Below, piece by piece: positions 1-38,300 of a DNA stretch of 64,000 bases (position 1 is its first letter; each line of letters begins with the position of its first letter). The position numbers and the translations under genes were made by a program. The notes under the pieces are model-generated. The model had not been told where the DNA came from. It was given only the letters and a program-made list of their open reading frames with translations, and made no database searches. This stretch comes from a virus: IMG/VR virus record IMGVR_UViG_3300037130_000236, one strand, 5' to 3'.

Positions 1-445
1 TATCGACCCACACATGATCCTCTGTCGCTCCCCGCGGTTCTACGGCGATGAAGTGGTCTGGCGTGATACTGGTGCAGGTCACTCGATGTCCGTCCCAGAT
101 GAACTGGCGGCCGACAAACATACGCTCACCCTCGAGGATGAAGGGCTTCCGACCGGCCCATTCTTCGTATGCCTGGCAGGCGGAGATGTTGCGAACGTCC
201 ACCGCGGCGCTGTAAAACCGCTCGTGTTCACAGCCAAACCAATAACCGCCCCGAAAGTCGTCCATGAGTTTCTTGAAGTCGCACTTCATAAATCTCATAC
301 CGCTGGTGATCGCAAGCACGACTGCCGAGTGCATGGAATGGTTTAGGCGTTGCCACGCATGTCCGGGTGTGGCCTCCTGATTCCTGTTCCAAACGTGCTT
401 GCACAGCACGTAAGCAGGGCTCTTGTATTTGGTGGGACGAAGCAT
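1..445 (-). CDS. Hypothetical protein, runs off the left edge
   Basis: Manual translation MLRPTKYKSPAYVLCKHVW... open to position 1; AAGGAG RBS before ATG at 445; absent from ORF track. Confidence 0.6.
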   Translation of the reverse strand, partial: MLRPTKYKSPAYVLCKHVWNRNQEATPGHAWQRLNHSMHSAVVLAITSGMRFMKCDFKKLMDDFRGGYWFGCEHERFYSAAVDVRNISACQAYEEWAGRKPFILEGERMFVGRQFIWDGHRVTCTSITPDHFIAVEPRGATEDHVWVD

Positions 446-519
446 GGGTCTCCTTGTCTGGCTACAACCAGATTGAACTGTGAGCTTGCAAATTGGGATA
501 AGGGAAACTGCTTAGGTCT

Positions 520-662
520 TGGGGGAGATGGCAGGATTTGAACCTGCAATTCCCGGGTCAGCTGCATTGCCCCGCAGCGTTACCGCTCTCGGTCACCATG
601 CGTGACCCAGGAAACCGGCGCAAGACCGGCGGGCTATCCGATACCACTGCCAATCATCTCCC
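520..662 (-). tRNA. tRNA-like RNA (143 nt) with 66-nt branched variable arm; identity unclear
   Basis: GGGAGATG/CATCTCCC acceptor (G-1:C73-type) + CCA; T arm GCAGG-TTCAAAT-CCTGC; anticodon-like arm GCCGG-TCTTGCG-CCGGT; insert closed by TTCCTGGGTCA/TGACCCGGGAA. Confidence 0.7.
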
Positions 663-666
663 ACAT

Positions 667-1011
667 CTATTCTGGCAGCTCTTGATCGATCAGCTCTGCC
701 AGCTCGATGTTCCGGGCGCTCGCCGCGCGCAGAAATGCTTTCGATGCGTCTTCCATCTCTAATGCGGCATCGTATTCCGCATCGCCAGAGTCGCCTTCCT
801 TGGCCACATCGAACCTCTTGATGGCCTTGATCAGGCTTTTCGCTTCGTCTAGCATGGAGGCTTCCTCATCATCTGAAGGGTGTGGCGGAACAAATACATG
901 GCCACAGTTTTGGCACGCTTGGCCGGCCACGGCCTCAAGAGGGATTTCCAGTCCACAGTCTGGGCAAACACCATCTTGATAACTGCGAATGATCGAAATG
1001 CTTTCCGACAT
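667..1011 (-). CDS. Zn-ribbon hypothetical protein
   Basis: CPDC...CQNC pairs; GGAG RBS before MSESIS (start trimmed from track ORF). Confidence 0.6.
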   Translation of the reverse strand: MSESISIIRSYQDGVCPDCGLEIPLEAVAGQACQNCGHVFVPPHPSDDEEASMLDEAKSLIKAIKRFDVAKEGDSGDAEYDAALEMEDASKAFLRAASARNIELAELIDQELPE

Positions 1012-1019
1012 ATGTGCTC

Positions 1020-1661
1020 CTACTGGGGATCCCAGCCGATCTGTTCGATCACATCGGTATCGTGATGCTCGTAACCGCGAAGCTCTGCCTGGCCGACCGT
1101 CACCGGGTCTTGTATGCCCATCGTGATTCGTTGGCACAGCCTGTGGGTCAAGACGATTCCGACAGCCACGCTCAGATTGAAGCAGTGGTAGGCCGGGATC
1201 TTGATGAACCGATGGCAGAGCGCGCGGTAGACCTGTGGAATGGAACCATCCTCGGGTCCGAAGAGGTAAACTCCCCGGTCGGGATGGATGAAGTCGTTCA
1301 GTGGTTCTGCGTTCTCTACGACCTCGATCGCCACCGGTGTAATCCCCGGTTCGAACAGGTCGAGAGGCTTATCGCTGGTGCCCCATTGAACATCGGCATA
1401 CCCGCGCATGCGTTCTTCCCGCGGCAGCCTGTCATAGTCATGGGGATTGACCCGCTTTCCTGTCCACAGCAGATTGTCGATTCCCGTGCAGGAACAGGTG
1501 CGCAGGACACCACCAACATTGCGGACGTATTTCGGGTTCACCAGAACGACGCCGCTGCCTTGCAGCGGCAGCCGGGCGCCGTGCTGTAGGCAACGCCTGA
1601 GTACCTTCTTGCTTTCAAACAGACATCCGCATTTCTCAGCTCTCAGTGCGTCAGTTGCCAT
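1020..1661 (-). CDS. SpoU/TrmH-family SPOUT RNA 2'-O-methyltransferase
   Basis: Motifs NVGGVLRT, YLFGPEDGSIP, IKIPAYHCFNLSVAVGIVL match the SPOUT knot pattern. Confidence 0.88.
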   Translation of the reverse strand: MATDALRAEKCGCLFESKKVLRRCLQHGARLPLQGSGVVLVNPKYVRNVGGVLRTCSCTGIDNLLWTGKRVNPHDYDRLPREERMRGYADVQWGTSDKPLDLFEPGITPVAIEVVENAEPLNDFIHPDRGVYLFGPEDGSIPQVYRALCHRFIKIPAYHCFNLSVAVGIVLTHRLCQRITMGIQDPVTVGQAELRGYEHHDTDVIEQIGWDPQ

Positions 1662-1667
1662 GATTCC

Positions 1668-2108
1668 TCAGTATTGTGCGAGTGTGATTGCCGTGACATT
1701 GAACCGGCGTTTGGCCTTGTCGTAGATGTCGTCCAGATCGAGATCGATGCGTTCGCCGGCGCTGTTGAAGGCCGTTGCATGCCCGTTGATGTAGCGCAGC
1801 TTTTCACTGCCTATTTGCTCAAAGACAACGATCTGATCGTCCTGAATCAGTTCTGCCAGCTCGGCTACAAGATCGACTTCATCATTGTCCTCGTCTGCAC
1901 CGAAATCGACCGTCGGCCAACCGCCGCTGTCGTTGACAGCGTCATCCGGCGCAACTCCAAACAGCTTTCTGGGATCTTTGCCGTCGGCCGGTTTCTCTTC
2001 CATTTCTTCCCAAACCTCCAGGCCGCGCTTGGCTGCCCACGCGCGGAAAGCAGCCTCATCCTTTACCGCAAAGTAGTTGCTGCGTGCACTGCCGTACCAG
2101 TTTGCCAT
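1668..2108 (-). CDS. Hypothetical acidic protein
   Basis: 146 aa ORF with GGAG RBS, in tandem with neighbours. Confidence 0.75.
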   Translation of the reverse strand: MANWYGSARSNYFAVKDEAAFRAWAAKRGLEVWEEMEEKPADGKDPRKLFGVAPDDAVNDSGGWPTVDFGADEDNDEVDLVAELAELIQDDQIVVFEQIGSEKLRYINGHATAFNSAGERIDLDLDDIYDKAKRRFNVTAITLAQY

Positions 2109-2182
2109 GTGGTTCTCTCCTAGTCGCGGTACCGTTTCATCCGGTCCACCACTTGTTCGCGCGTTTCACCTTGCGGCTGTAT

Positions 2183-2686
2183 TCACGCCGCAGTTTGTTC
2201 CAGCGCCACCACTCCAGAAATGCCTTGATCATTGCGCTCCCAACTCTTGTTCGCCATCAGGTCAAGCCAGTACATCCGCTCGGCCATCAGAATCCGGCCC
2301 AGCCAGTTCGTGCCTTGGCCATTGCAGACACCGTAGAAATAGTCATGCCAGGTGTTGCCCTCAACAAGATCGTGAGGGAAGGTATTCACCAGCTGAATGC
2401 GAATGTCCTTGTTCTGGGCGAACTTGGCATGAACCACCTCGGACATGACGATCAGACTGATCTCTTTCCAGTCCGGCCGCGTGAGATGCTTCAGCTCCTT
2501 CGAAAGCTTCTTGGCGCCTTTGCCATCCGTGCTCTCGTACTTGAGCCTGTATTCCTCGTCCCGCGGCAACAATTTGGCTGCCTGATACGCACTCTCGCTG
2601 TTTTGGTACAGGTGGCCGCTATGCCAGAGCGGCGCCTCATGGAAGTTCGACAACCAACGATATTCGCCCATGAATGAATCGATCAT
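2183..2686 (-). CDS. NADAR (YbiA-like) family protein
   Basis: WLSNF, SESAYQAAK, M..VVHAKFAQN, LVEGNTWHDYFYG, NWLGRILM motifs; start trimmed to MIDSF. Confidence 0.9.
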   Translation of the reverse strand: MIDSFMGEYRWLSNFHEAPLWHSGHLYQNSESAYQAAKLLPRDEEYRLKYESTDGKGAKKLSKELKHLTRPDWKEISLIVMSEVVHAKFAQNKDIRIQLVNTFPHDLVEGNTWHDYFYGVCNGQGTNWLGRILMAERMYWLDLMANKSWERNDQGISGVVALEQTAA

Positions 2687-2814
2687 CTTCAACCTTTCCG
2701 TCCCTGTGTCCCGATAGGAGCATCGCCAAACGTTCCCGTCAGAAACACAGGGCACGGGCGGTGAGACCGGATCGTTGGCGCGACCGGTACGCAGTCTCTT
2801 TCCGCAGCTTGAGG

Positions 2815-3057
2815 CTACCGAGGTTTAACCTCAGTGCCCGTCCAAACGTGTGTTGCGGGTTCGGGCTTCATGGTCTTGGGTAGCTGCCGGCCTTCCCAGT
2901 GAACTTCGCTGGGCTCAAAGGTTCGGCTGTATTCACACGCTGTTTCCGCGTCCTCGTCACCTTCGAGGGCTTTCTTGAAAGCCTCTTCGATGGTCTCGGC
3001 TTCCACTTCCTTGGTGGCCCAGTGAAGCTCGGGTACTTCGATCTCAAACCTTGCCAT
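2815..3057 (-). CDS. Hypothetical protein
   Basis: 80 aa ORF with GGAG RBS. Confidence 0.65.
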   Translation of the reverse strand: MARFEIEVPELHWATKEVEAETIEEAFKKALEGDEDAETACEYSRTFEPSEVHWEGRQLPKTMKPEPATHVWTGTEVKPR

Positions 3058-3177
3058 CGGTTCCTCCGTTGCAGGGTACTTCGTAGGCTTCGTGAAGGTC
3101 GTCGGCCATCATCAGGAAGCGGCGCGCGCCTTCGCGCAAGCAGGCTTCATCCAACAGGATGGGATACCAAAGTCATT

Positions 3178-3510
3178 TCACTTCACTCGCACCATCGTCG
3201 TTGTAGCGAGGGTGTCGTAGACGGTGTCCAGCATCTGTTTGGCTAAGGCTCGTCCATCCGGATCGGCCATCAGAGCCACAAACTCCGGACTCTCGTTCCA
3301 CAGGCTGAAGACCAGCGCTTTGAGGCCGGCGATGTCGCCACGGTCAATGAACTCCGAGCACCGCTCGCAGGCAGCCCAGACACGCGTGTAGTTGTGAGCG
3401 GGGCCGACTTCCGGCCCGGACTCCACAAACATGCGAACCAAGATGTCTTGGCCCGCGTCATAATGTCGTGTGGCTAAGCGCTGACTGCAGAAATCACAAT
3501 TGTCTGGCAT
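3178..3510 (-). CDS. Hypothetical protein with two CxxC pairs
   Basis: CDFC, CERC; AAGGAG RBS. Confidence 0.7.
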   Translation of the reverse strand: MPDNCDFCSQRLATRHYDAGQDILVRMFVESGPEVGPAHNYTRVWAACERCSEFIDRGDIAGLKALVFSLWNESPEFVALMADPDGRALAKQMLDTVYDTLATTTMVRVK

Positions 3511-3525
3511 CGTGCTCCTTCAAAT

Positions 3526-3615
3526 TGGCAGGGGCGACAGGATTTGAACCTGCAGTGAACTTGCGTTCCGTGGCTTTGGAGACCACTGTGCCGAACCGGA
3601 TTGCACATCACCCCT
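3526..3615 (-). tRNA. tRNA-Trp(CCA) with 16-nt long variable arm
   Basis: AGGGGTG/CGCCCCT + G73 + CCA; D stem GTGC/GCAC; anticodon arm GTGGT-CTCCAAA-GCCAC; variable hairpin GAAC-GCAA-GTTC; T arm GCAGG-TTCAAAT-CCTGT. Confidence 0.9.
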
Positions 3616-3964
3616 GTGCTGTCCACTCGTTGAGACACTGACGGCAGTTGTATTGTGCCGCGGTCTCGGTGGTCCGCATATCATTCTTGGTTGTCCGAAT
3701 GGTTATCTCGACTGAATCTACATTCCAGCTGAGGCATTTCGGACACTCCACATGTGTTGGTAACGGTCGAAGCATCGAGCCGCCAGGAAACTCCTTGCGC
3801 GCCTCGATCTCTTCAACCACACTCTTGACTTCTGCTTCGGTGAAGGGACGCCCCTTCACCCGAGCGGCCAGAACATCGTTCACTTTGAGCCAGAACGGGG
3901 CATCCCATCGTCCGTGGGAACTGAAGCTCACCCAGCTCATGGGAATCTCGCCTATTTGTGACAT
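3608..3964 (-). CDS. Hypothetical Zn-ribbon protein; stop codon overlaps tRNA-Trp 5' end
   Basis: CPKC...CRQC; TGA at 3608-3610 lies inside the tRNA's first 8 nt. Confidence 0.65.
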   Translation of the reverse strand: MSQIGEIPMSWVSFSSHGRWDAPFWLKVNDVLAARVKGRPFTEAEVKSVVEEIEARKEFPGGSMLRPLPTHVECPKCLSWNVDSVEITIRTTKNDMRTTETAAQYNCRQCLNEWTAQG

Positions 3965-4965
3965 TTGGCCTTCGTGTCCTTGGTCAGCTTCTTGAAGTTG
4001 TAGACCCAGATCTTCGACTCAACGGCATTCGGCGGCAGTGGGAAAGTGATCCCGGCCTTAGCCTCGACGTTGGTCAGCATCGTGTGGACACTCTCCAGGT
4101 CGTTGCCCAGATCGCCGGCCTGAGGAAACAGGAAGGCGACGTACTGGCCCGTCACGATATCGACCACGATCTTGTAGAAACCCGTGGGCACATCCACTTG
4201 GTCGGTGCCGATCTTCTTGTCCGTGGCCACGTCATAGACTGGCCCGGCATAGATCAGATAGGTATGACCGCTCTCGTAGGCGCCGGCGCGAACCGCCGTC
4301 TCGAGCAGCTTCCACAACCCTCGGTTCAAACCCGGGCGCTGAGGCGTCATATTGGAGAGCATGAAGCTCTCCCGTTCCACATCCGGATCCCAGCGCATGT
4401 CGCCGTCCGGAGCAATGTGGCCCATATCGAATCCGCTGCCCACATAGTCAGCCGGCTTGGCGCGACCGCCCTCCGGAAGGGTATCGTCGGCAGCAAAGGC
4501 ATTGCTGCGCACTTCGCAGCCAACCGCATGTTCAGGCGTCAGGGTGTAAGACACCCACTCCGGAAGCTTGGCCACCTCATCGCTGTATACCAGATAGGCT
4601 CGCCGGCAAATGTAGGCGTGCGTACTGTCAGCCGTGAGCAATTCTCCCCTGATGGTCAGAGGTGTCCCATAGGGAACGAACTGATGACAGGAGCTGAGGG
4701 GCTGTTCTGGAGGAGCTGAGTAGACAGTGGGTGCCAAGATCAGGGCGACCATGGCAACGGCCACAGCAAAGCCAAGTCCGCGGCAGAGTCTCTTGACTTG
4801 GCTGAGGGCACATGGAAAAGCCTTCTCATGTCCACACTCAATGCACCGCAGCTTGGTGCGCTCGGGGGTAACGGGCTTCATGATGCCGCCACACACCCAT
4901 GGGGTTGGGATAAACCCGAAGATCTTCACACGACAATCGCAAACGAATGCGCTTCCAAGTTGCAT
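3952..4965 (-). CDS. DNA/RNA non-specific endonuclease (EndoG/NucA-like) with Cys-rich N-terminus and TM/signal segment
   Basis: PEWVSY, R..F..D, DMGH (DRGH-like), SFMLSNMTPQ...LNRGLW, IYAGPVY, VPTGFYKIV. Confidence 0.9.
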   Translation of the reverse strand: MQLGSAFVCDCRVKIFGFIPTPWVCGGIMKPVTPERTKLRCIECGHEKAFPCALSQVKRLCRGLGFAVAVAMVALILAPTVYSAPPEQPLSSCHQFVPYGTPLTIRGELLTADSTHAYICRRAYLVYSDEVAKLPEWVSYTLTPEHAVGCEVRSNAFAADDTLPEGGRAKPADYVGSGFDMGHIAPDGDMRWDPDVERESFMLSNMTPQRPGLNRGLWKLLETAVRAGAYESGHTYLIYAGPVYDVATDKKIGTDQVDVPTGFYKIVVDIVTGQYVAFLFPQAGDLGNDLESVHTMLTNVEAKAGITFPLPPNAVESKIWVYNFKKLTKDTKAKCHK

Positions 4966-4990
4966 TTGGCACTCACTTTCTGGTTCAAAT

Positions 4991-5031
4991 CTCCCGCCGG
5001 GAAAGGGTTCACCGGGCTAACCCGGCGGGAG
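4991..5031. other. GC-rich hairpin upstream of nuclease gene
   Basis: CTCCCGCCGGG ... CCCGGCGGGAG 11-bp inverted repeat; no clear U-tract. Confidence 0.4.
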
Positions 5032-5066
5032 GGGTGGCGTTGTCCTTGATCTTGGACGACCTGAGC

Positions 5067-5414
5067 TTACGCACCAGGACGGGATTCACAACCCGTATTC
5101 ACGCCCGCTTGTGGCTCCGGCTGCACCGGAACAAATTTGCTTCCCGACTCTCTCATCGCCGCGAGAATACGAGCAGCCCGTTCTGTATCAAAGCTCTCGG
5201 GACGGCCGTCGTAGCAGCCTGGAATTCTCCCCGTGCTTGCCCGATAGCAACGGCTTCTGATCTCGTCGGCCAATTTACGATCCGCTTCAGTCGGCGTCAC
5301 ATCGCATTTGAGACAGCGGTCGTTGACAATCTGATTGCAGCCGCAGCGATCGCAGAACGCATACCCATCAGCTCGATAGTTGATACCGTTCTTTAACGCA
5401 TACTCGTCCTGCAT
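5067..5414 (-). CDS. Hypothetical Cys-rich protein
   Basis: CDRCGC...CLKC; GGAG RBS before MQDEY (start trimmed out of the tRNA-like gene). Confidence 0.6.
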   Translation of the reverse strand: MQDEYALKNGINYRADGYAFCDRCGCNQIVNDRCLKCDVTPTEADRKLADEIRSRCYRASTGRIPGCYDGRPESFDTERAARILAAMRESGSKFVPVQPEPQAGVNTGCESRPGA

Positions 5415-5428
5415 TGTTTCTCCATTCA

Positions 5429-5559
5429 TGGTGGGGCAAGGAGGACTTGAACCTCCATGCAACGCCGGTCATGCAGCCCGGCTGCGCCTATCCTGCAGGG
5501 TTGAGCACTGTTGCGCCGGATTATCGGTCCGGTGTGTCTACCAGTTTCACCATCGCCCC
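5429..5559 (-). tRNA. tRNA-like RNA (131 nt), GAT anticodon, Leu-like D arm, 59-nt branched variable arm
   Basis: GGGGCGA/TTGCCCC + A73 + CCA; D arm GTG-AAACTGGTAGA-CAC; CCGGA-CCGATAA-TCCGG; insert closed by GCAAC/GTTGC; T arm GGAGG-TTCAAGT-CCTCC. Confidence 0.75.
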
Positions 5560-5564
5560 ATTTG

Positions 5565-6000
5565 AGGAGCCGAGCCCAGAAGGCTTATTAGGCCAGCCCG
5601 GGCCCGGCTCCGAAGGTTCCGAAATTGGGTCACCTATCAAACCATCAGAGGGTTACACTGCGTTCGCCACCCACAATCGCCAGAATGCTGTGATTCACCG
5701 ATTAGCTCCATGCGCGCTATGAATTGACAGCTCACTTCCTGGGCCGTCCGAAGGCTTACCAGAGCGCGTACCACGGCTGGTTGGGGCATTCTCCCACCTC
5801 TGCTTCGTTGGTTCCGAAGAACCGATCTCGTGCCAGGGGACGGATTTGTCACCGTCATCTCTCCGGCGGATTAACGCGTCTCCGCAGGCCGCTCTACTTC
5901 TTGAGCTACTCCCGACTCAATACTTCAACCGGTGTGCTGTTACGCTAAAGAGTCCATGTCTCGCCTTACCAGGCCAGCCGCAGTTTGCGTAGCAAGAAAC
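5565..6000 (-). ncRNA. Candidate large structured ncRNA directly upstream of the tRNA-like gene
   Basis: No convincing ORF; 12-bp stem 5566-5577/5600-5611; GGTTC-TTCG-GAACC hairpin 5810-5823; further CCTTCGG loops; embedded D-arm-like TAGCTCAAGAAGTAGAGC. Confidence 0.5.
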
Positions 6001-6003
6001 GTG

Positions 6004-6138
6004 TCAACTGCGACCCGCGTGCCAATAGCGTTTGGCGTGAATGCAGCAATTCCCGGCGAGCAGCCGGCCTGCTTCATCTCTGCACCCCGAACTGCCACGC
6101 ATACCATTCCGATACGTCTCCGGCAGTCCCCGTGTCAC
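6004..6138 (-). CDS. Small hypothetical protein (44 aa)
   Basis: AAGGAG RBS + GTG; MTRGLPETYRNG...HAGRS; below track length cutoff. Confidence 0.4.
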   Translation of the reverse strand: MTRGLPETYRNGMRGSSGCRDEAGRLLAGNCCIHAKRYWHAGRS

Positions 6139-6194
6139 GACTCACTCCTTGGAGGATGGCTGCTATCAAGCCAACCTTCCGGTTGAAGAACTTG

Positions 6195-6425
6195 TTAGGC
6201 CGCGGCGGTCAGCGTGACCGAACTGATGGGGGTCGGCGCCGAAGCGGCGGGCTTGGCTGCCTTGGTTGCCTTGGCGGGCTTCGCAGCGGTCGCCGGCGCG
6301 TTGGCGGCGATCTTCTGGCTGGCGATCGCGGTAAAGAAGTTCAGCGCGGTCTGGGTTTGCTCGACGGTTGCGGTTGCAATGTATTCCACCAGGTACTGCT
6401 CAAAGCTCTTGGCTTTCTTTGCCAT
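6195..6425 (-). CDS. Small protein with Ala/Lys/Pro-rich (histone H1-like) tail
   Basis: MAKKAK... AAKPAKATKAAKPAA; GAGGA RBS. Confidence 0.65.
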   Translation of the reverse strand: MAKKAKSFEQYLVEYIATATVEQTQTALNFFTAIASQKIAANAPATAAKPAKATKAAKPAASAPTPISSVTLTAAA

Positions 6426-6429
6426 TCGA

Positions 6430-6760
6430 ATTCCTCTTTCGGTTGGGTTAATGATTGAGCCACACAGGACTGTTGTTCCTGTCTCTTTCACCGTGTTCAG
6501 GATCGAGACTGACGGGATCCATCCTGTGTGGTCCAGTCATGAGCGTTTTGTTCCGCCGGACTCGCTCCCACCGGTCTTAATGCCCGATCCGAGTGCTAGG
6601 TGAAGCCGTACAGCATGGCTTCACTGGCACTGCGTCGTAGGCATCTTTTGGGGCATCACGGTTGAACTCGTGACATCCTCCACCACCTGATGTGTTTCAT
6701 GGCATCAGGACCACTCCTTGGTTTTACTGGCCAAGAACAGGTCGCACCATCAGGGAAAAC
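6430..6760 (-). ncRNA. Candidate structured leader RNA
   Basis: Hairpins CCTGATG/CATCAGG, TCACG/CGTGA, GTGAAGCC/GGCTTCAC, CCACACAGGA/TCCTGTGTGG. Confidence 0.35.
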
Positions 6761-6762
6761 CC

Positions 6763-7023
6763 TTATGGCGTTTGATCTGCCGTCAGTTTGACAAGATCAG
6801 TTGAACTACCAAAGCTTCCATCGGCGTTTCCTTGCCTGAATCGACGCACAGCAGATTGGCCAATTACACGCAGAAGGTTTGCTGATATCCGCAACTCCAG
6901 GATTTCTCCTTGGAGCCTGCGGATTTCGGTTCCTAATCGTGTCATCATCTGTTCGTGACAATCTGCGCAAACAGCCCGTCGCATTCGTCTCGACGAGCAC
7001 TTTTGACATACGCACATGTTCAT
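6763..7023 (-). CDS. Hypothetical protein, N-terminal Cys cluster plus coiled coil
   Basis: MNMCVCQKC...CADC; start trimmed. Confidence 0.5.
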   Translation of the reverse strand: MNMCVCQKCSSRRMRRAVCADCHEQMMTRLGTEIRRLQGEILELRISANLLRVIGQSAVRRFRQGNADGSFGSSTDLVKLTADQTP

Positions 7024-7415
7024 TGCCCTTGAATTGCGTTTTCCTGTTTTGGACAGCTGGATGACCGGGATTGGTCCCGGCGAGCGAAGGTTCGGAACAT
7101 GGTCCCCGACCAATTCGCCGCCGCGGAAAGTAAAGACGGGCGCACACCTGATCAGGCATGGCGGAGAGCCATCTCACGCGACACTTGTCTGGAAGTATGC
7201 TGCGCCGAATGGAGGCTTTGCCTCTGCCGGTCGGATAGACGCGGCAGCAAGGCGAAACCAATCTGGAAGACGGAGGGGAGTTGAGGAAGGGGTACCTGAT
7301 AAATAGCGTTGAAATGGGGCAAATAATGGCATTCTAAGGTCGGTAGAGGCCCAGCCGGGCACGCTGCGGGTTCTGAATATTGAACATGCTTTTTGTAGCT
7401 TCTAATAAGTGCCGA

Positions 7416-13666: not shown

Positions 13667-15047
13667 TTGCTGTCCAAAATAGCAGGAAGCTCTTCACGCT
13701 TGCCTGACGCGCAAAGTGGGCTGATCCCCGTTACTCTGGAGTGGGTTCCTGAGCAGAACCACAGCCAAAGAGAGAAGGATCAGCCATGACTCAAGTATGC
13801 AGTGTCTACTCGCAGCTTTTGCAACTTTTTCCACGCGGACAGTTCGCGCAGGCTGTCAAGCAGCATCAAGCCGAGTTCAACGCCAAGGGGTTCACCTGCT
13901 GGGAACAGTTCGTGGCCATGCTGTTTTGCCAGGTGGCGCATATGAACTCGCTACGCGAAGTCTGCCTGGGTCTGGCCGGATGCGAATCGCCGCTGAAGCA
14001 TCTGGGCATCAGCGCCGCGCCCAAGAAATCGACCTTAGCGTATGCCAACGCCAATCGCCCTTGGGAACTCTACCAGTCGATTTTCATGCAGTTGCTGGGA
14101 AAGTGTCAGGCCGAGACGGCGACCCGCAGTAGCCGCAAGTTCCGCTTCAAGAACAAGCTGATGAGCCTGGATGGCAGCATCATCGAGTTGTCGGCCACGA
14201 TGTTCGATTGGGCCAAGTATCGCCAGCGCAAGGGCGCCATCAAATTGCATCTGTTGTTGGACCACGACGGCTACCTGCCCTCGTTCGCGGTAGTGACGGA
14301 CGGCAAATATAGCGAACTGAAAGTGGCGCGAGGCTTGCATCTGGAAGCGGGTACGATCCTGGCCATTGATCGCGGCTACAACGATTACGTCTGGTTCGGG
14401 CAATTGACGCGGGACGGGGTCTTCTTCGTCACACGCATGAAGACCAACACGGTCTACACGACGGTCGAGGTGTGCGCGGTTCCAGAAAAGGGCAACGTGC
14501 TCAGCGACCAGATTGTCTCTCTGCCTTCCCTGGATAAGGATGGCGAGGCGCCGGTCCTGTTCCGGCGCATTGAATACTGGAACGCGGACAAGCAGGAGAT
14601 TCTGGTGTTCTTCACCAATCTTCTGCACTTGGCGGCCTCGACAGTAGCCGCGATCTATAAGGACCGTTGGCAGGTGGAACTGTTTTTTAAGGCCCTGAAG
14701 CAAACAGCAAAAGTGAAGTCGTTCCTGGGCACCAGCGCCAATGCGGTCAAGACGCAGATCTGGACGGCGCTGATCGCAATGCTGATCCTGAAGTACCTGC
14801 AGATGAAGTCCAGCTTTGGCTGGTCGCTTTCCAATCTGGCGGCCCTGCTGCGCCAGCAACTGTTCATCTTCAGGGACTTGTGGGCGTGGCTCAACAATCC
14901 GCTGGAGGGACCGCCAGCCGCACGGCAACTGGCCGAGCAGTTACCCATGCCGCTCATGTGGTAGCCACGAGTTGGACAGCAGAAGAAATGCAAGCATCCA
15001 CTTGAGCCCGTAGCACAGAACTTACACGCCGGCGAATTGGACAGCAG
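13667..15047 (+). mobile_element. IS4-family insertion sequence
   Basis: Left IR TTGCTGTCCAA 13667-13677; right IR TTGGACAGCAG at 14972-14982 and again at 15037-15047; no target duplication recognised. Confidence 0.8.
13786..14964 (+). CDS. IS4-family DDE transposase
   Basis: FTCWEQFVAMLF N-terminus; LDGS, IDRGY, YKDRWQVELFFKALKQ (YREK-like signature). Confidence 0.95.
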   Translation: MTQVCSVYSQLLQLFPRGQFAQAVKQHQAEFNAKGFTCWEQFVAMLFCQVAHMNSLREVCLGLAGCESPLKHLGISAAPKKSTLAYANANRPWELYQSIFMQLLGKCQAETATRSSRKFRFKNKLMSLDGSIIELSATMFDWAKYRQRKGAIKLHLLLDHDGYLPSFAVVTDGKYSELKVARGLHLEAGTILAIDRGYNDYVWFGQLTRDGVFFVTRMKTNTVYTTVEVCAVPEKGNVLSDQIVSLPSLDKDGEAPVLFRRIEYWNADKQEILVFFTNLLHLAASTVAAIYKDRWQVELFFKALKQTAKVKSFLGTSANAVKTQIWTALIAMLILKYLQMKSSFGWSLSNLAALLRQQLFIFRDLWAWLNNPLEGPPAARQLAEQLPMPLMW

Positions 15048-36786: not shown

Positions 36787-37743
36787 CTACGCCGCCGGAG
36801 CAGCGGGCAGGGCCGTCGCCACCCGGTTCTGCCCCTCACGCTTTGCCTTGTATAAAGCCCTGTCGGCTGCCAGGAGCAGGTCTGGAGGTGTCGTGATCGT
36901 TCCATCCGGCTGGGGCATTGTAGTGGCAACACCGATGCTTGCGGTCACCGACACCCAATCACCGGAATTCTTATTCGAGCGAAAGCGTAAGGTCTGGATG
37001 GCAGAGTGCACTTTTTCAGCGGCCCTGAACGCACCGAGCCCCTCTGTAGCGGGAAGGATGATTGCCATCTCATCCCCACCCCAGCGGCAGACAATATCTG
37101 AAGCGCGCACGGAGTCGCTGATGGCGGAAGCAACCGTGCACAGACAAACATCCCCGACAGGATGCCCGTACCGGTCATTGAACGGCTTGAAATGATCTAT
37201 ATCGAGTAGCAGCAGGGACAGTTGCGATTCCTCGCGGACCGTTCGTTTCCATTCCCTTCTAAGGCTTTGGTCGAAAGCGCGACGATTCCAGAGCCCGGTG
37301 AGAGCGTCCGTCATGGCCAGGGCGGACAGTTTCTCCTCCAGCACCTTGCGGCCGGTGATGTCCCGCATGGACAAAACGTAGACGCGGGGCTCGCCGTTCA
37401 CCGGATCGCGCACACACCGGGTATTGATGCTGGTCCAAACCGGGGTTTGGTCCTTCTTCAACAGCCGCACTCTCACGTGGGAATAGGCAGCGCCATCCTC
37501 GGCGCTGCCCGTGGCAATATCTTCGAGGACCGCAAGGTCCTCGGAAAATACGAACTCGTCGAAATCTTTGCCGATCATCTCGCCGGGGTCCCAGTTGAGA
37601 GTGTCGAGAGCAGAAGGGGACACGTAGCGAATCGCATGATCCGCGCCAACGCTGCACAGAATATCGGCGCAGTTCTCTGCCAGGAACTTGTAATCGATCT
37701 CGACCGCGCCGCTCGGCTCGTGTTGGTCTTCAGGAGGAATCAA
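36787..37743 (-). CDS. PAS-GGDEF diguanylate cyclase
   Basis: PAS (YVSPS..WDPGEMIGK...RDIT), TDALTGLWNRR, DIDHFKPFNDRYGHPVGD, RASD I-site, RWGGDEM, TASIG, ADRALYKAK; GAGGAG RBS + TTG. Confidence 0.9.
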   Translation of the reverse strand: MIPPEDQHEPSGAVEIDYKFLAENCADILCSVGADHAIRYVSPSALDTLNWDPGEMIGKDFDEFVFSEDLAVLEDIATGSAEDGAAYSHVRVRLLKKDQTPVWTSINTRCVRDPVNGEPRVYVLSMRDITGRKVLEEKLSALAMTDALTGLWNRRAFDQSLRREWKRTVREESQLSLLLLDIDHFKPFNDRYGHPVGDVCLCTVASAISDSVRASDIVCRWGGDEMAIILPATEGLGAFRAAEKVHSAIQTLRFRSNKNSGDWVSVTASIGVATTMPQPDGTITTPPDLLLAADRALYKAKREGQNRVATALPAAPAA

Positions 37744-38300
37744 CTCAACTCCTCGAACGAGGCCAGGGAAAAACGTTTGCGGTGCGCCCCCGCAAACGGC
37801 CCTTAAACCCGTGGTCGGGGAGTTGGAAAGCCGATACGACACGGCTCCTGTGACCTTTAGCCGCGAAGCCTGGACATACGTCACAGGCTCCCCGACCCAA
37901 AGGCAAGGGAGATCACACGTCTTGCGACGTGCCTTTGTCGTATTCGGGGTTTCCACACCCCAGGGCGGCGCGTGACCGCCCCAAAGTCATCATAACTTTG
38001 TTTTGCAGTCTTTTGGTAGAGTAAGAATCTGTTTTTCTCCAACCTGCCCCGGAATAGCCGAGAGCTTTTTGCCCGGCGAGGTTGAGCCACGCTGCCATCA
38101 TTCGGGGCAGGTAGGCACGCAATAAAGCATCGGCTTTCTAAGCCGGGCCGACTTCTTGCCTCATTGGGTTCATGAACCCCATAATCTTCTCACTGGCACC
38201 AACAGCTCGTAGCGCTCACTGAGAGATCTATCGATCTTCCGTTACAGGTTCCGGGCGTCTGGTCTGCACCTCGGAAGCAGACCCACTATCCAAACCCCTG

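What the first reader, a model, noticed from the sequence alone, without database searches (positions are those of the whole stretch)
520..6760. Candidate system: non-canonical tRNA-like RNAs clustered with an RNA methyltransferase and large structured RNAs
Seen: all three CCA-ending tRNA-like genes in this 6 kb have enlarged variable arms (66, 16 and 59 nt). The two giant-arm ones both carry C instead of U at position 33. Two share the 17-mer TGCAGGTTCAAATCCTG. A SPOUT methyltransferase gene, a nuclease gene and two structured non-coding blocks are co-oriented with them. Established: class I variable loops are 4-5 nt and class II about 13-25 nt; U33 is near-invariant for decoding; hosts abort phage infection with anticodon nucleases (PrrC, PARIS AriB, VapC). 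Inference: these may be tRNA-scaffolded RNAs acting as decoys, synthetase/T-box ligands or carriers of extra domains, possibly modified by the adjacent methyltransferase, rather than ordinary tRNAs.
Basis: partly seen in the sequence, partly recalled or inferred. Interest (0 to 1): 0.85.

Follow-up and report, generated by a model that had tools for sequence, protein, structure and literature searches.

The report
Phage tRNA genes with oversized arms
A large prophage of peat-soil Acidobacteriaceae carries three real, conserved tRNA-derived genes, two of them with 58-66 extra folded bases in the variable arm. They look like re-shaped or non-decoding phage tRNAs, and I found no evidence that they form a system with the neighbouring methyltransferase and nuclease.

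Summary
Three co-oriented, CCA-ending tRNA-like genes lie at 520-662, 3526-3615 and 5429-5559 (minus strand), with variable regions of 66, 16 and 58-59 nt. A strict acceptor plus T-arm scan finds 3, against 0.14 expected by chance.

- **tC (5429-5559)** descends from a tRNA-Leu(UAA)-type gene. It has four compensatory pairs across relatives, so it is not a decaying pseudogene. Its anticodon triplet differs between sister phages (GAU, ACG, ACA).
- **tB (3526-3615)** is a tRNA-Trp with a GCAA-capped extra hairpin.
- **tA (520-662)** is a His-type (G-1:C73) body without a normal anticodon loop.

C33 does not mark a non-decoder. The loop CCGAUAA is the same in tRNA-Ile(GAU) of all four cultured phages I sampled.

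Relatives carry similar inserts in the D loop and the anticodon loop. No splicing endonuclease or RtcB was found, and contigs from RNA libraries span the genes unspliced, so the inserts are probably retained expansions.

The link to the SpoU methylase and the nuclease is not supported by synteny. One upstream block (6426-6770) is a well-conserved structured RNA with no Rfam match.

The closest precedent is the irregular acidobacterial tRNAs of Mukai et al. 2017. This scan has noted extra-arm and C33 phage tRNAs on other DNA before. I class it as a new variant of a known kind.

The parts
520..662 (-). tA: His-type tRNA-like RNA with an 8-bp acceptor (G-1:C73), a canonical D and T arm, a 6-bp stem with a 5-6 nt loop in place of the anticodon arm, a 66-nt rod-like variable-arm insert, and an encoded CCA
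   Evidence: Not found by ARAGORN or Rfam.
667..1011 (-). small Cys-rich (zinc-ribbon-like) ORF between SpoU and tA
   Evidence: weak zf-ChsH2 match; no PHROG
1020..1661 (-). divergent SpoU/SPOUT 2'-O-methyltransferase; target unassigned
   Evidence: Pfam PF00588, 61 bits. Far below the TrmJ, RlmB and TrmL cut-offs. Weak PDB matches to Nhr and TrmH.
2183..2755 (-). NADAR-domain protein
3526..3615 (-). tB: tRNA-Trp(CCA) with A1:U72, G73, U33 and A8, plus a 16-nt extra arm (4-bp stem, GCAA loop)
   Evidence: Identical in every relative that has it. Absent from the G001 prophage.
3952..4965 (-). non-specific DNA/RNA endonuclease with an N-terminal Cys cluster and a hydrophobic helix
5067..5423 (-). 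Cys-rich small protein, always found just downstream of a tRNA or tRNA-like gene in relatives
5429..5559 (-). tC: tRNA-Leu(UAA)-derived class II body (A73, CCA) with loop CCGAUAA and a 58-nt branched variable arm (5-bp base helix plus two hairpins)
5560..6194 (-). nc1: mosaic spacer. It holds a long hairpin (5566-5611) 6 nt before tC and a degenerate tRNA relic (about 5829-5916).
   Evidence: (twister-P5 match, E 1.1, read as noise)
6195..6425 (-). 76-aa Lys/Ala-rich small protein
6426..6770 (-). nc2: conserved, strongly folded 345-nt RNA candidate or 5' leader; no Rfam family
   Evidence: (z = -4.1)

Best explanation
The three genes are real, phage-borne derivatives of tRNA genes in one co-oriented gene string of a large temperate phage of uncultured Acidobacteriaceae. 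tC comes from a tRNA-Leu(UAA)-type gene, tB is a tRNA-Trp and tA is a G-1:C73 His-type gene. The extra sequence is a retained expansion of the variable arm, not an intron. Selection keeps the acceptor, T and D arms and the base of the extra arm. The anticodon triplet is either swapped between sister phages (tC) or not presented in a 7-nt loop at all (tA). I infer that they are cut out of a polycistronic transcript by RNase P and RNase Z, carry CCA, and are charged through anticodon-independent identity sets (LeuRS with A73 and the Leu-type D arm; HisRS with G-1:C73; TrpRS). I further infer that they serve the phage in the conflict over tRNA. tB, and possibly tC with its phage-typical CCGAUAA loop, would act as re-shaped replacement decoders that host tRNA nucleases handle poorly. 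tA, and possibly tC, would be charged but not used in decoding. Shown here: the genes, their structure and conservation, their descent, the C33 pattern, and the lack of splicing enzymes in the two nearest records held. Inferred: processing, charging and the role in defence evasion. The methyltransferase, the nuclease, NADAR and (just outside the window) the tmRNA are neighbours in a translation and RNA-maintenance island, not demonstrated partners.
For: Real and non-random: 3 hits against 0.14 expected. Under structural selection: tC has 4 pairs with changes on both sides (acceptor 7:66, D stem, base of the extra arm, T stem), 97.7% of cells paired, and 0 of 500 shuffles reach this. The outer helix of the tA insert is kept, with one compensatory pair, while its tip varies. 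Descent: a model built from tC hits 85-90 nt class II genes in all 151 Acidobacteriaceae genomes searched, at about 70-77 bits. Those I aligned are tRNA-Leu and share the anticodon stem CCGGA/UCCGG, with loop CUUAAAA. The best cultured-phage match of tC is a tRNA-Leu. Anticodon swap: GAU, ACG and ACA alleles sit on bodies 86-92% identical, and each of the first two recurs identically in many peat metagenomes. C33 is a mobile-element tRNA trait: 0 of 26 scattered host tRNAs, 7 of 25 in a host mobile-element cluster, and the only tRNA-Ile of a 34-tRNA relative. Four of four sampled cultured-phage tRNA-Ile(GAU) genes have CCGAUAA. Extra GNRA-capped arms recur: Trp here, and Lys(UUU) in L069. Not spliced by proteins: no tRNA_int_endo and no RtcB in G001 or G002, and no group I or ribozyme match. 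Contigs from RNA libraries of different studies span tA and tC with the inserts in place. Context: relatives of this phage carry a PNKP-like kinase/phosphatase, a CCA-adding enzyme, RlaP, PTH2, RtcB, RNase T and a permuted tmRNA. Precedent: acidobacterial G-1 tRNAs with non-His anticodons are charged by HisRS but not used in translation (PMC5389517). Phage tRNAs are proposed to escape anticodon nucleases through loop changes (PMC10264068). Septu cuts the variable loop of tRNA-Tyr (PMC13096335).
Against: There is no direct evidence of mature RNA size, CCA status, charging or decoding. RNA-library contigs cannot exclude DNA carry-over or a rare spliced form. If LeuRS charges tC and it decodes, it would put Leu at Ile, Arg or Cys codons, which is hard to square with a helpful replacement tRNA. 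tB has A8 instead of U8. A more distant relative (L045) has an ordinary tRNA-Ala at the syntenic place and 34 normal tRNAs, so the expansions are not needed by the wider group. No host tRNA nuclease was identified here. Overall divergence among the genomes is low, so the covariation rests on 3-6 distinct sequences.
Confidence: 0.5

Rival explanations
1. Pure decoys or sponges: none of the giant-armed RNAs decodes. They present a tRNA top half, and for tC a chosen anticodon loop, to soak up or block host tRNA-targeting toxins. The tC triplet is re-set between sister phages to match the host's target.
For: All three anticodon bases differ between alleles, while positions 32, 33, 37 and 38 and the stem stay the same. 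Three of about 13 differences fall on these 3 of 131 positions. tA has no 7-nt loop. In relatives the irregular parts are again the anticodon loops. G-1 irregular tRNAs are charged but not translated.
Against: The GAU allele carries exactly the loop of working phage tRNA-Ile genes. No nuclease target is known. There are only three alleles. tB looks like a competent decoder.
Confidence: 0.2
2. Processing punctuation: former tRNAs kept only as RNase P and RNase Z cleavage signals that free the downstream small ORFs from a long transcript. The inserts are tolerated drift in loops that no longer matter.
For: No promoter- or terminator-like sites above chance across 300-7200. Each element is followed within about 20 nt (tB, tC) by a ribosome-binding site and an ORF. 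Only the acceptor, T and D arms are strongly kept. A tRNA relic lies in nc1. Inserts sit in three different loops in relatives.
Against: The base helix and hairpins of the tC arm are kept with compensatory and wobble changes. The encoded CCA and the identity elements (A73; G-1:C73) are retained.
Confidence: 0.12
3. Intron-bearing tRNA genes: the inserts are removed, by an unknown ribozyme or enzyme, to give normal-sized tRNAs.
For: In relatives an intact 7-nt loop sequence is followed by the insert, and removing the insert restores a perfect anticodon arm. The best example is L069:4660-4847, with a Lys-type loop, a 113-nt insert and then the 3' strand of the stem. L047:8869-8992 is similar. 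A distant relative encodes RtcB.
Against: The window's inserts sit in the variable arm, where removal is not needed. No EndA and no RtcB in G001 or G002. No group I or small-ribozyme match. By eye I found no bulge-helix-bulge motif in L049:5457-5570. RNA-library contigs are unspliced. At 43-66 nt the inserts are too short for group I introns.
Confidence: 0.08
4. Y-RNA-like partners of a Ro60/Rsr ring protein, with the extra arm as the docking helix.
For: A SpoU-bearing relative (L075) encodes a TROVE/Ro60 protein. The host G001 has a TROVE gene with a weak tRNA-like match about 0.7 kb upstream.
Against: No TROVE gene in the provirus record G002, and none among the window ORFs I scanned. No YrlA match. 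In YrlA the RNA ends form the Ro-binding stem, whereas here they form an acceptor stem with CCA.
Confidence: 0.05
5. Non-functional pseudogenes that accumulated junk insertions.
For: Ordinary tRNAs lie at the same place in L045. A true relic exists in nc1. tA varies at 5% against a 2% background, but so does its neighbourhood.
Against: Compensatory changes occur in four helices of tC. Acceptor and T arms are perfect in all copies. Identical copies occur in many metagenomes. CCA is retained.
Confidence: 0.05

Closest known systems
Irregular and allo-tRNA-like tRNAs of Acidobacteria from forest and peat soil (Mukai et al. 2017, PMC5389517)
   Same: Same host phylum and habitat. Polycistronic, irregular tRNAs whose anticodons disagree with the body's identity. 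G-1 tRNAs with non-His anticodons are charged by HisRS but not used in translation. Five-stem junction forms are described. The proposed roles are missense suppressor or regulatory RNA.
   Different: The defining 8/4 or 9/3 acceptor/T-stem split is not present: tA is 8/5, and tB and tC are 7/5. That paper does not describe 58-66 nt branched variable arms, D-loop or anticodon-loop inserts, or a prophage setting, as far as I read it.
Phage tRNAs with anticodon-loop changes proposed to escape host anticodon nucleases (van den Berg et al. 2023, PMC10264068); phage tRNA-Ile(GAU) with loop CCGAUAA
   Same: The tC(GAU) loop is identical to that of the tRNA-Ile genes of phages Pokken, pEa_SNUABM_55, Acj9 and JG003. 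C33 is enriched in mobile-element tRNAs of this host and absent from its scattered tRNAs.
   Different: Those are 76-nt class I tRNA-Ile genes. tC has a tRNA-Leu body, a giant arm, and alleles with other anticodons.
Class II tRNA-Leu (Rfam RF00005)
   Same: Leu-type D arm, A73, the anticodon stem of the host-family tRNA-Leu(UAA), and a variable arm at the same place.
   Different: Non-Leu anticodon, C33, and a variable arm about 45 nt longer that branches.
Engineered aptamer-tagged or V-Spinach tRNAs (Mukai 2020, PMC7590224)
   Same: A tRNA carrying a folded extra domain at the tip of the variable arm. Small hairpins are tolerated in translation, while large ones give marginal activity or sequestration.
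   Different: Those are synthetic. No binding partner is known for the natural arms here.

Membership tests
Canonical tRNA (Rfam RF00005) | Score above the gathering cut-off with a full cloverleaf | tested here: met
   tC 47.4 bits and tB 41.7 bits, against 29. tA is not detected at E <= 5, so this is met for two of the three.
Canonical tRNA (Rfam RF00005) | 7-nt anticodon loop with U33 and a purine at 37 | tested here: not met
   tC has C33. tA has loop UCUUGCG (C33, C37), or a 5-6 nt loop in the consensus fold. Only tB meets it.
Canonical tRNA (Rfam RF00005) | Variable region of 4-5 nt (class I) or about 13-25 nt (class II) | tested here: not met
   66 nt (tA) and 58-59 nt (tC). tB has 16 nt on a Trp body, which is normally class I.
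tRNA-Leu (identity set known from E. coli: A73, Leu-type D arm, anticodon not read) | A73, a Leu-type D arm, class II architecture, and similarity to host-family tRNA-Leu | tested here: met
   (tC only). Charging itself was not tested.
tRNA-Leu | A Leu anticodon (NAG or NAA) | tested here: not met
   GAU, ACG and ACA
Allo-tRNA (Mukai 2017) | 12-bp acceptor branch split 8/4 or 9/3 | tested here: not met
   tA is 8 + 5; tB and tC are 7 + 5
tRNA-His-type identity | G-1:C73 pair and a GUG anticodon | tested here: inconclusive
   G-1:C73 is present and invariant in 6 variants of tA. There is no GUG anticodon.
Intron-containing tRNA (group I, or bulge-helix-bulge with EndA and RtcB) | A group I core, or a splicing endonuclease plus a ligase | tested here: not met
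   No Rfam intron or ribozyme match. PF01974 and PF01139 are absent from G001 (86% complete) and G002 (58% complete).
YrlA / bacterial Y RNA with Ro60 | An adjacent TROVE gene and a YrlA-type fold | tested here: not met
   No TROVE gene in G002 or among the window ORFs scanned; there is one on host contig C7. No RF02553 match.
T-box leader (for nc2) | Match to RF00230 | tested here: not met
   No match at E <= 10 on 6400-6800
SpoU/TrmH-family 2'-O-methyltransferase | SpoU_methylase domain above the cut-off | tested here: met
   61.4 bits against 29.7. The TrmJ, RlmB and TrmL equivalog cut-offs are not met.

The most novel reading that the evidence does not exclude
The tRNA top half is used by these phages as a chassis for added RNA domains. 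tC would be a re-settable anticodon-loop mimic whose triplet is swapped between sister phages to match whichever host tRNA a defence nuclease attacks. The conserved upstream RNA nc2 would sense these RNAs and control the island: it has an invariant GGUGGUGG stretch complementary to the CCACCA 3' ends, a UUCAA-containing hairpin loop reminiscent of a T-loop, and a hairpin loop of the form CCAYRAA.
Probability: 0.15. Interest if true: 0.85.

Novelty: new variant of a known kind. Interest (0 to 1): 0.6.

Why it matters
Natural tRNAs are thought to tolerate very little change in size. Here a phage lineage keeps tRNA-derived genes with 58-66 nt folded domains in the variable arm, and its relatives keep similar inserts in the D loop and the anticodon loop, all under structural selection. 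If these RNAs decode, they show how far a working tRNA can be re-shaped, probably to escape host tRNA nucleases. They would also be natural counterparts of engineered aptamer-tagged tRNAs. If they do not decode, they are a class of charged tRNA mimics in phage-host conflict. The result also corrects a tempting inference: C33 next to GAU is the normal state of phage tRNA-Ile genes, not a mark of a dead tRNA.

Tried and rejected
- **Cultured-phage DNA search.** The 6.6-kb region, tA and tB found nothing. tC found only a tRNA-Leu 5' half.
- **DNA search of 301 genomes of the host's order.** Only G001 matched.
- **Covariance model of tC in 151 family genomes.** The full-length form was found only in G001. 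All other listed hits are 85-90 nt, the size of ordinary class II tRNAs; those I aligned are tRNA-Leu.
- **Single-protein locus searches in viral contigs.** Only the two near-identical proviruses came back.
- **Exact-pattern scans for tC and nc2 in viral contigs.** Same two records.
- **Inserts as copies of a mobile repeat.** No second copy of any insert in the window or in 10 related loci.
- **tA as a hypervariable hotspot.** It has 5% mismatches against a 2% background, but the neighbouring coding bins are as variable, so I dropped the idea.
- **Joint 548->649 in one RNA-library contig.** Only 30 letters fit on the short side, at a likeness setting of 90. I read it as a divergent allele, not splicing.
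- **RNA runs.** All are assembled contigs, so they show neither ends, strand nor level, and parts without cover say nothing.
- **Weak Rfam matches.** Twister-P5 in nc1 (E 1.1), C/D sRNA matches inside ORFs, and Glutamine-II in nc2 (E 0.56) are all read as noise.
- **Promoter and terminator scan.** At or below chance.
- **tA as an attachment-site tRNA fragment.** Rejected, because it is a complete element inside the prophage in G001.

Full report
**Where the window comes from**

The window's own assembly is not held. The nearest records are an IMG/VR provirus (G002, 124 kb, 98% identical over 400-7000) and a prophage in a 3.26-Mb contig of a 6.1-Mb genome (G001, 79-97% identical in collinear blocks). 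The G001 contig is titled as an uncultured Acidobacteriaceae MAG. Related contigs come from peat, permafrost and wetland metagenomes. All genes in 400-7000 lie on the minus strand.

**The observation**

A strict scan for a 7-bp acceptor stem plus a canonical T arm finds three elements in 64 kb. All three lie in the flagged region, on one strand, and all end in N-CCA. Simulated sequence gives 0.14 such hits, or 0.005 with CCA.

- Rfam scores tC (5429-5559) at 47.4 bits and tB (3526-3615) at 41.7 bits.
- ARAGORN calls only tB, as tRNA-Trp.
- tA (520-662) escapes both tools.
- The variable regions measure 66, 16 and 58-59 nt.
- The shared 17-mer is the T arm. An ordinary tRNA-Met of a related phage has the same T arm, so it carries no special meaning.

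**tC (5429-5559)**

tC has a Leu-type D arm, A73 and an encoded CCA.

- A covariance model built from its five distinct variants hits 85-90 nt class II genes in all 151 Acidobacteriaceae genomes searched, at about 70-77 bits. Only G001 has the 131-nt form, at 164 bits. The tally includes two unpublished genomes, on which nothing here depends.
- In the alignment, the hits I aligned are tRNA-Leu. The host-family tRNA-Leu(UAA) has the same anticodon stem (CCGGA/UCCGG), with loop CUUAAAA. tC differs by a changed loop and about 45 added bases in the variable arm.
- Three alleles exist. GAU with encoded CCA is in the window and many identical metagenome copies. ACG without encoded CCA is in G001 and eight metagenome copies. 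ACA is in L049.
- Across these alleles the acceptor stem, the D stem, the base helix of the extra arm and the T stem each show one change on both sides. In all, 97.7% of cells pair, and no shuffle of 500 reaches this. The first hairpin of the arm moves between G-U and A-U pairs.
- tC is therefore a constrained RNA, yet its anticodon triplet changes about ten times faster per site than the rest.

**tB (3526-3615)**

tB has the Trp set (A1:U72, G73, CCA anticodon, U33), an odd A8, and a 4-bp extra arm capped by GCAA. It is identical in every relative that has it, and missing from G001, L047 and L049. A tRNA-Lys(UUU) in another tRNA cluster of G001 carries a similar GAAA-capped arm.

**tA (520-662)**

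tA has an invariant 8-bp acceptor stem with G-1:C73, a D arm with GG and a perfect T arm. In the consensus fold of six variants, the 'anticodon' arm is a 6-bp stem with a 5-6 nt loop. The insert is a long irregular rod whose outer helix is kept, with one compensatory pair, and whose tip varies. Its D loop resembles that of a tRNA-His in the G001 cluster.

**C33**

None of 26 scattered G001 tRNAs lacks U33. Seven of 25 tRNAs in the G001 contig-5 cluster do, and so does the single tRNA-Ile(GAU) of the 34-tRNA relative L045. The tRNA-Ile(GAU) genes of four cultured phages from four host genera all have the loop CCGAUAA, identical to tC. C33 therefore cannot be used to argue that tC does not decode.

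**Relatives widen the picture**

I reached more distant relatives through the small Cys-rich protein encoded just downstream of tC.

- L047 and L049 carry a class I tRNA with a 43-52 nt insert after an intact 7-nt loop sequence. The exons are about 90% identical, but the inserts are unrelated.
- They also carry a tRNA with a roughly 50-nt hairpin in the D loop and a CUA triplet in an irregular loop.
- L049 also has the ACA allele of tC.
- The G001 contig-5 cluster holds two further giants of 188 and 190 nt. In one, a Lys-type loop is followed by a 113-nt insert and then the 3' strand of the stem.
- L045 has 34 ordinary tRNAs, with a normal tRNA-Ala at the place syntenic to tC.
- The inserts are not copies of a repeat.

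**Intron or expansion?**

Neither an archaeal-type splicing endonuclease nor RtcB is found in G001 or G002. Nothing in the region matches a group I intron or a small ribozyme. Contigs from metatranscriptome libraries of separate studies span tA (404-729) and most of tC (5119-5534) with the inserts in place. These are assembled contigs, and DNA carry-over cannot be excluded. I read the inserts of the window as retained expansions.

**The 'system' claim**

- The SpoU gene is a divergent family member with no assignable target.
- Its relatives at 83, 79 and 52% identity sit in other large-phage contigs without any long tRNA-like gene nearby.
- L047 has long tRNA-likes but no SpoU gene called on the 19 kb read.
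- The nuclease is a Serratia-type non-specific enzyme with an N-terminal Cys cluster and a hydrophobic helix. Nothing ties it to tRNA.
- The neighbourhood is nevertheless meaningful as an island. Relatives carry a PNKP-like enzyme, a CCA-adding enzyme, RlaP, PTH2, RtcB, RNase T and a permuted tmRNA.

**The non-coding blocks**

nc2 (6426-6770) is 93-95% identical in G001 and L049, and 80% identical in L047. The adjacent protein is only 72-77% identical in L049 and L047. nc2 has long invariant runs, indels of 1, 14 and 47 nt, and stepwise A-U to G-U to G-C changes in a hairpin. It folds with z = -4.1 and matches no Rfam family. It ends at the ribosome-binding site of a 76-aa Lys/Ala-rich ORF.

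nc1 (5560-6194) is conserved only in patches. It contains a leader hairpin and a degenerate tRNA relic.

**Comparison with what is known**

- Mukai et al. 2017 described irregular, polycistronic tRNAs from acidobacterial peat and forest metatranscriptomes. These include G-1 species with non-His anticodons that HisRS charges but that are not used in translation. The authors proposed missense-suppressor or regulatory roles. tA and tC fit this kind but not the defining 8/4 or 9/3 architecture.
- The anti-nuclease reading follows van den Berg et al. 2023 and the report that Septu cuts the variable loop of tRNA-Tyr.
- In the searches I ran, I found no paper describing 58-66 nt branched variable arms or D-loop hairpins in phage tRNAs.
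- Notes of this scan report extra-arm and C33 phage tRNAs, and giant-armed tRNA-like RNAs, on other DNA.

**Verdict**

I class it as a new variant of a known kind and score its interest at 0.6.

Noticed in passing
window 6426-6770 (-): A 345-nt non-coding stretch is more conserved than the flanking protein genes. It folds strongly (z = -4.1), has non-triplet indels and has no Rfam match. It is a candidate new structured RNA or leader of the 76-aa Lys/Ala-rich ORF.
   Followed up: partly
window about 6660-6700 (-), within nc2: An invariant GGUGGUGG stretch is complementary to the CCACCA 3' ends of tC and of the L047/L049 tRNA-likes. A 7-bp hairpin has a loop starting CCAUGAA, CCACGAA or CCACAAA in different phages, which resembles the anticodon loops of the tC alleles. 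This could be chance.
   Followed up: no
L047:9885-10010 and L049:6464-6589: A tRNA with a roughly 50-nt hairpin inserted in the D loop and a CUA triplet in a 6-7 nt loop. It could be an amber-suppressor-like RNA. The gene calls of L047 look normal under the standard code.
   Followed up: partly
L047:8869-8992 and L049:5457-5570: A class I tRNA with a 43-52 nt insert after a 7-nt loop sequence (AUAACAG or ACAACAG). The exons are about 90% identical but the inserts are unrelated.
   Followed up: partly
L069 (G001 contig 5, 707000-713000): A cluster of about 26 tRNA genes in another mobile-looking region of the host. Seven of 25 have C33. A tRNA-Lys(UUU) has a GAAA-capped extra arm. Two giant tRNA-likes of 190 nt (2741-2930) and 188 nt (4660-4847) are present.
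   Followed up: partly
L078-L081 (cultured phages Pokken, pEa_SNUABM_55, Acj9, JG003): All four sampled tRNA-Ile(GAU) genes have C33 (loop CCGAUAA). The query tRNA matched 1078 phage records, so this may be a general trait of phage tRNA-Ile genes.
   Followed up: partly
L008:446-639 (-), L041:12760-13014, L047:15727-16002, L073:9827-10172: A permuted (two-piece) tmRNA is encoded by this phage group just beyond the window's left edge. ARAGORN predicts an unusually long tag of about 30 residues ending in LAAV.
   Followed up: partly
window about 5829-5916 (-): A degenerate tRNA relic: a D arm without GG, a 10-nt 'anticodon' loop, an 8-nt T-like loop and a 6-of-7 acceptor stem.
   Followed up: partly
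L077 (G001 contig 7, 244373-247657): The host has a TROVE/Ro60-like gene with a weak tRNA-like Rfam match about 0.7 kb upstream. This is a candidate YrlA-type Y RNA locus.
   Followed up: no
L070:8707-8790 (G002 68713-68782): Another irregular tRNA-like sequence with a GCA-type loop and a long variable region. It scores below the Rfam cut-off (25.8 bits).
   Followed up: no
window 13786-14964 (+) and 36787-37956 (-): A DDE transposase (DUF4372 plus DDE_Tnp_1) and a PAS-GGDEF diguanylate cyclase lie inside the phage-like window.
   Followed up: no
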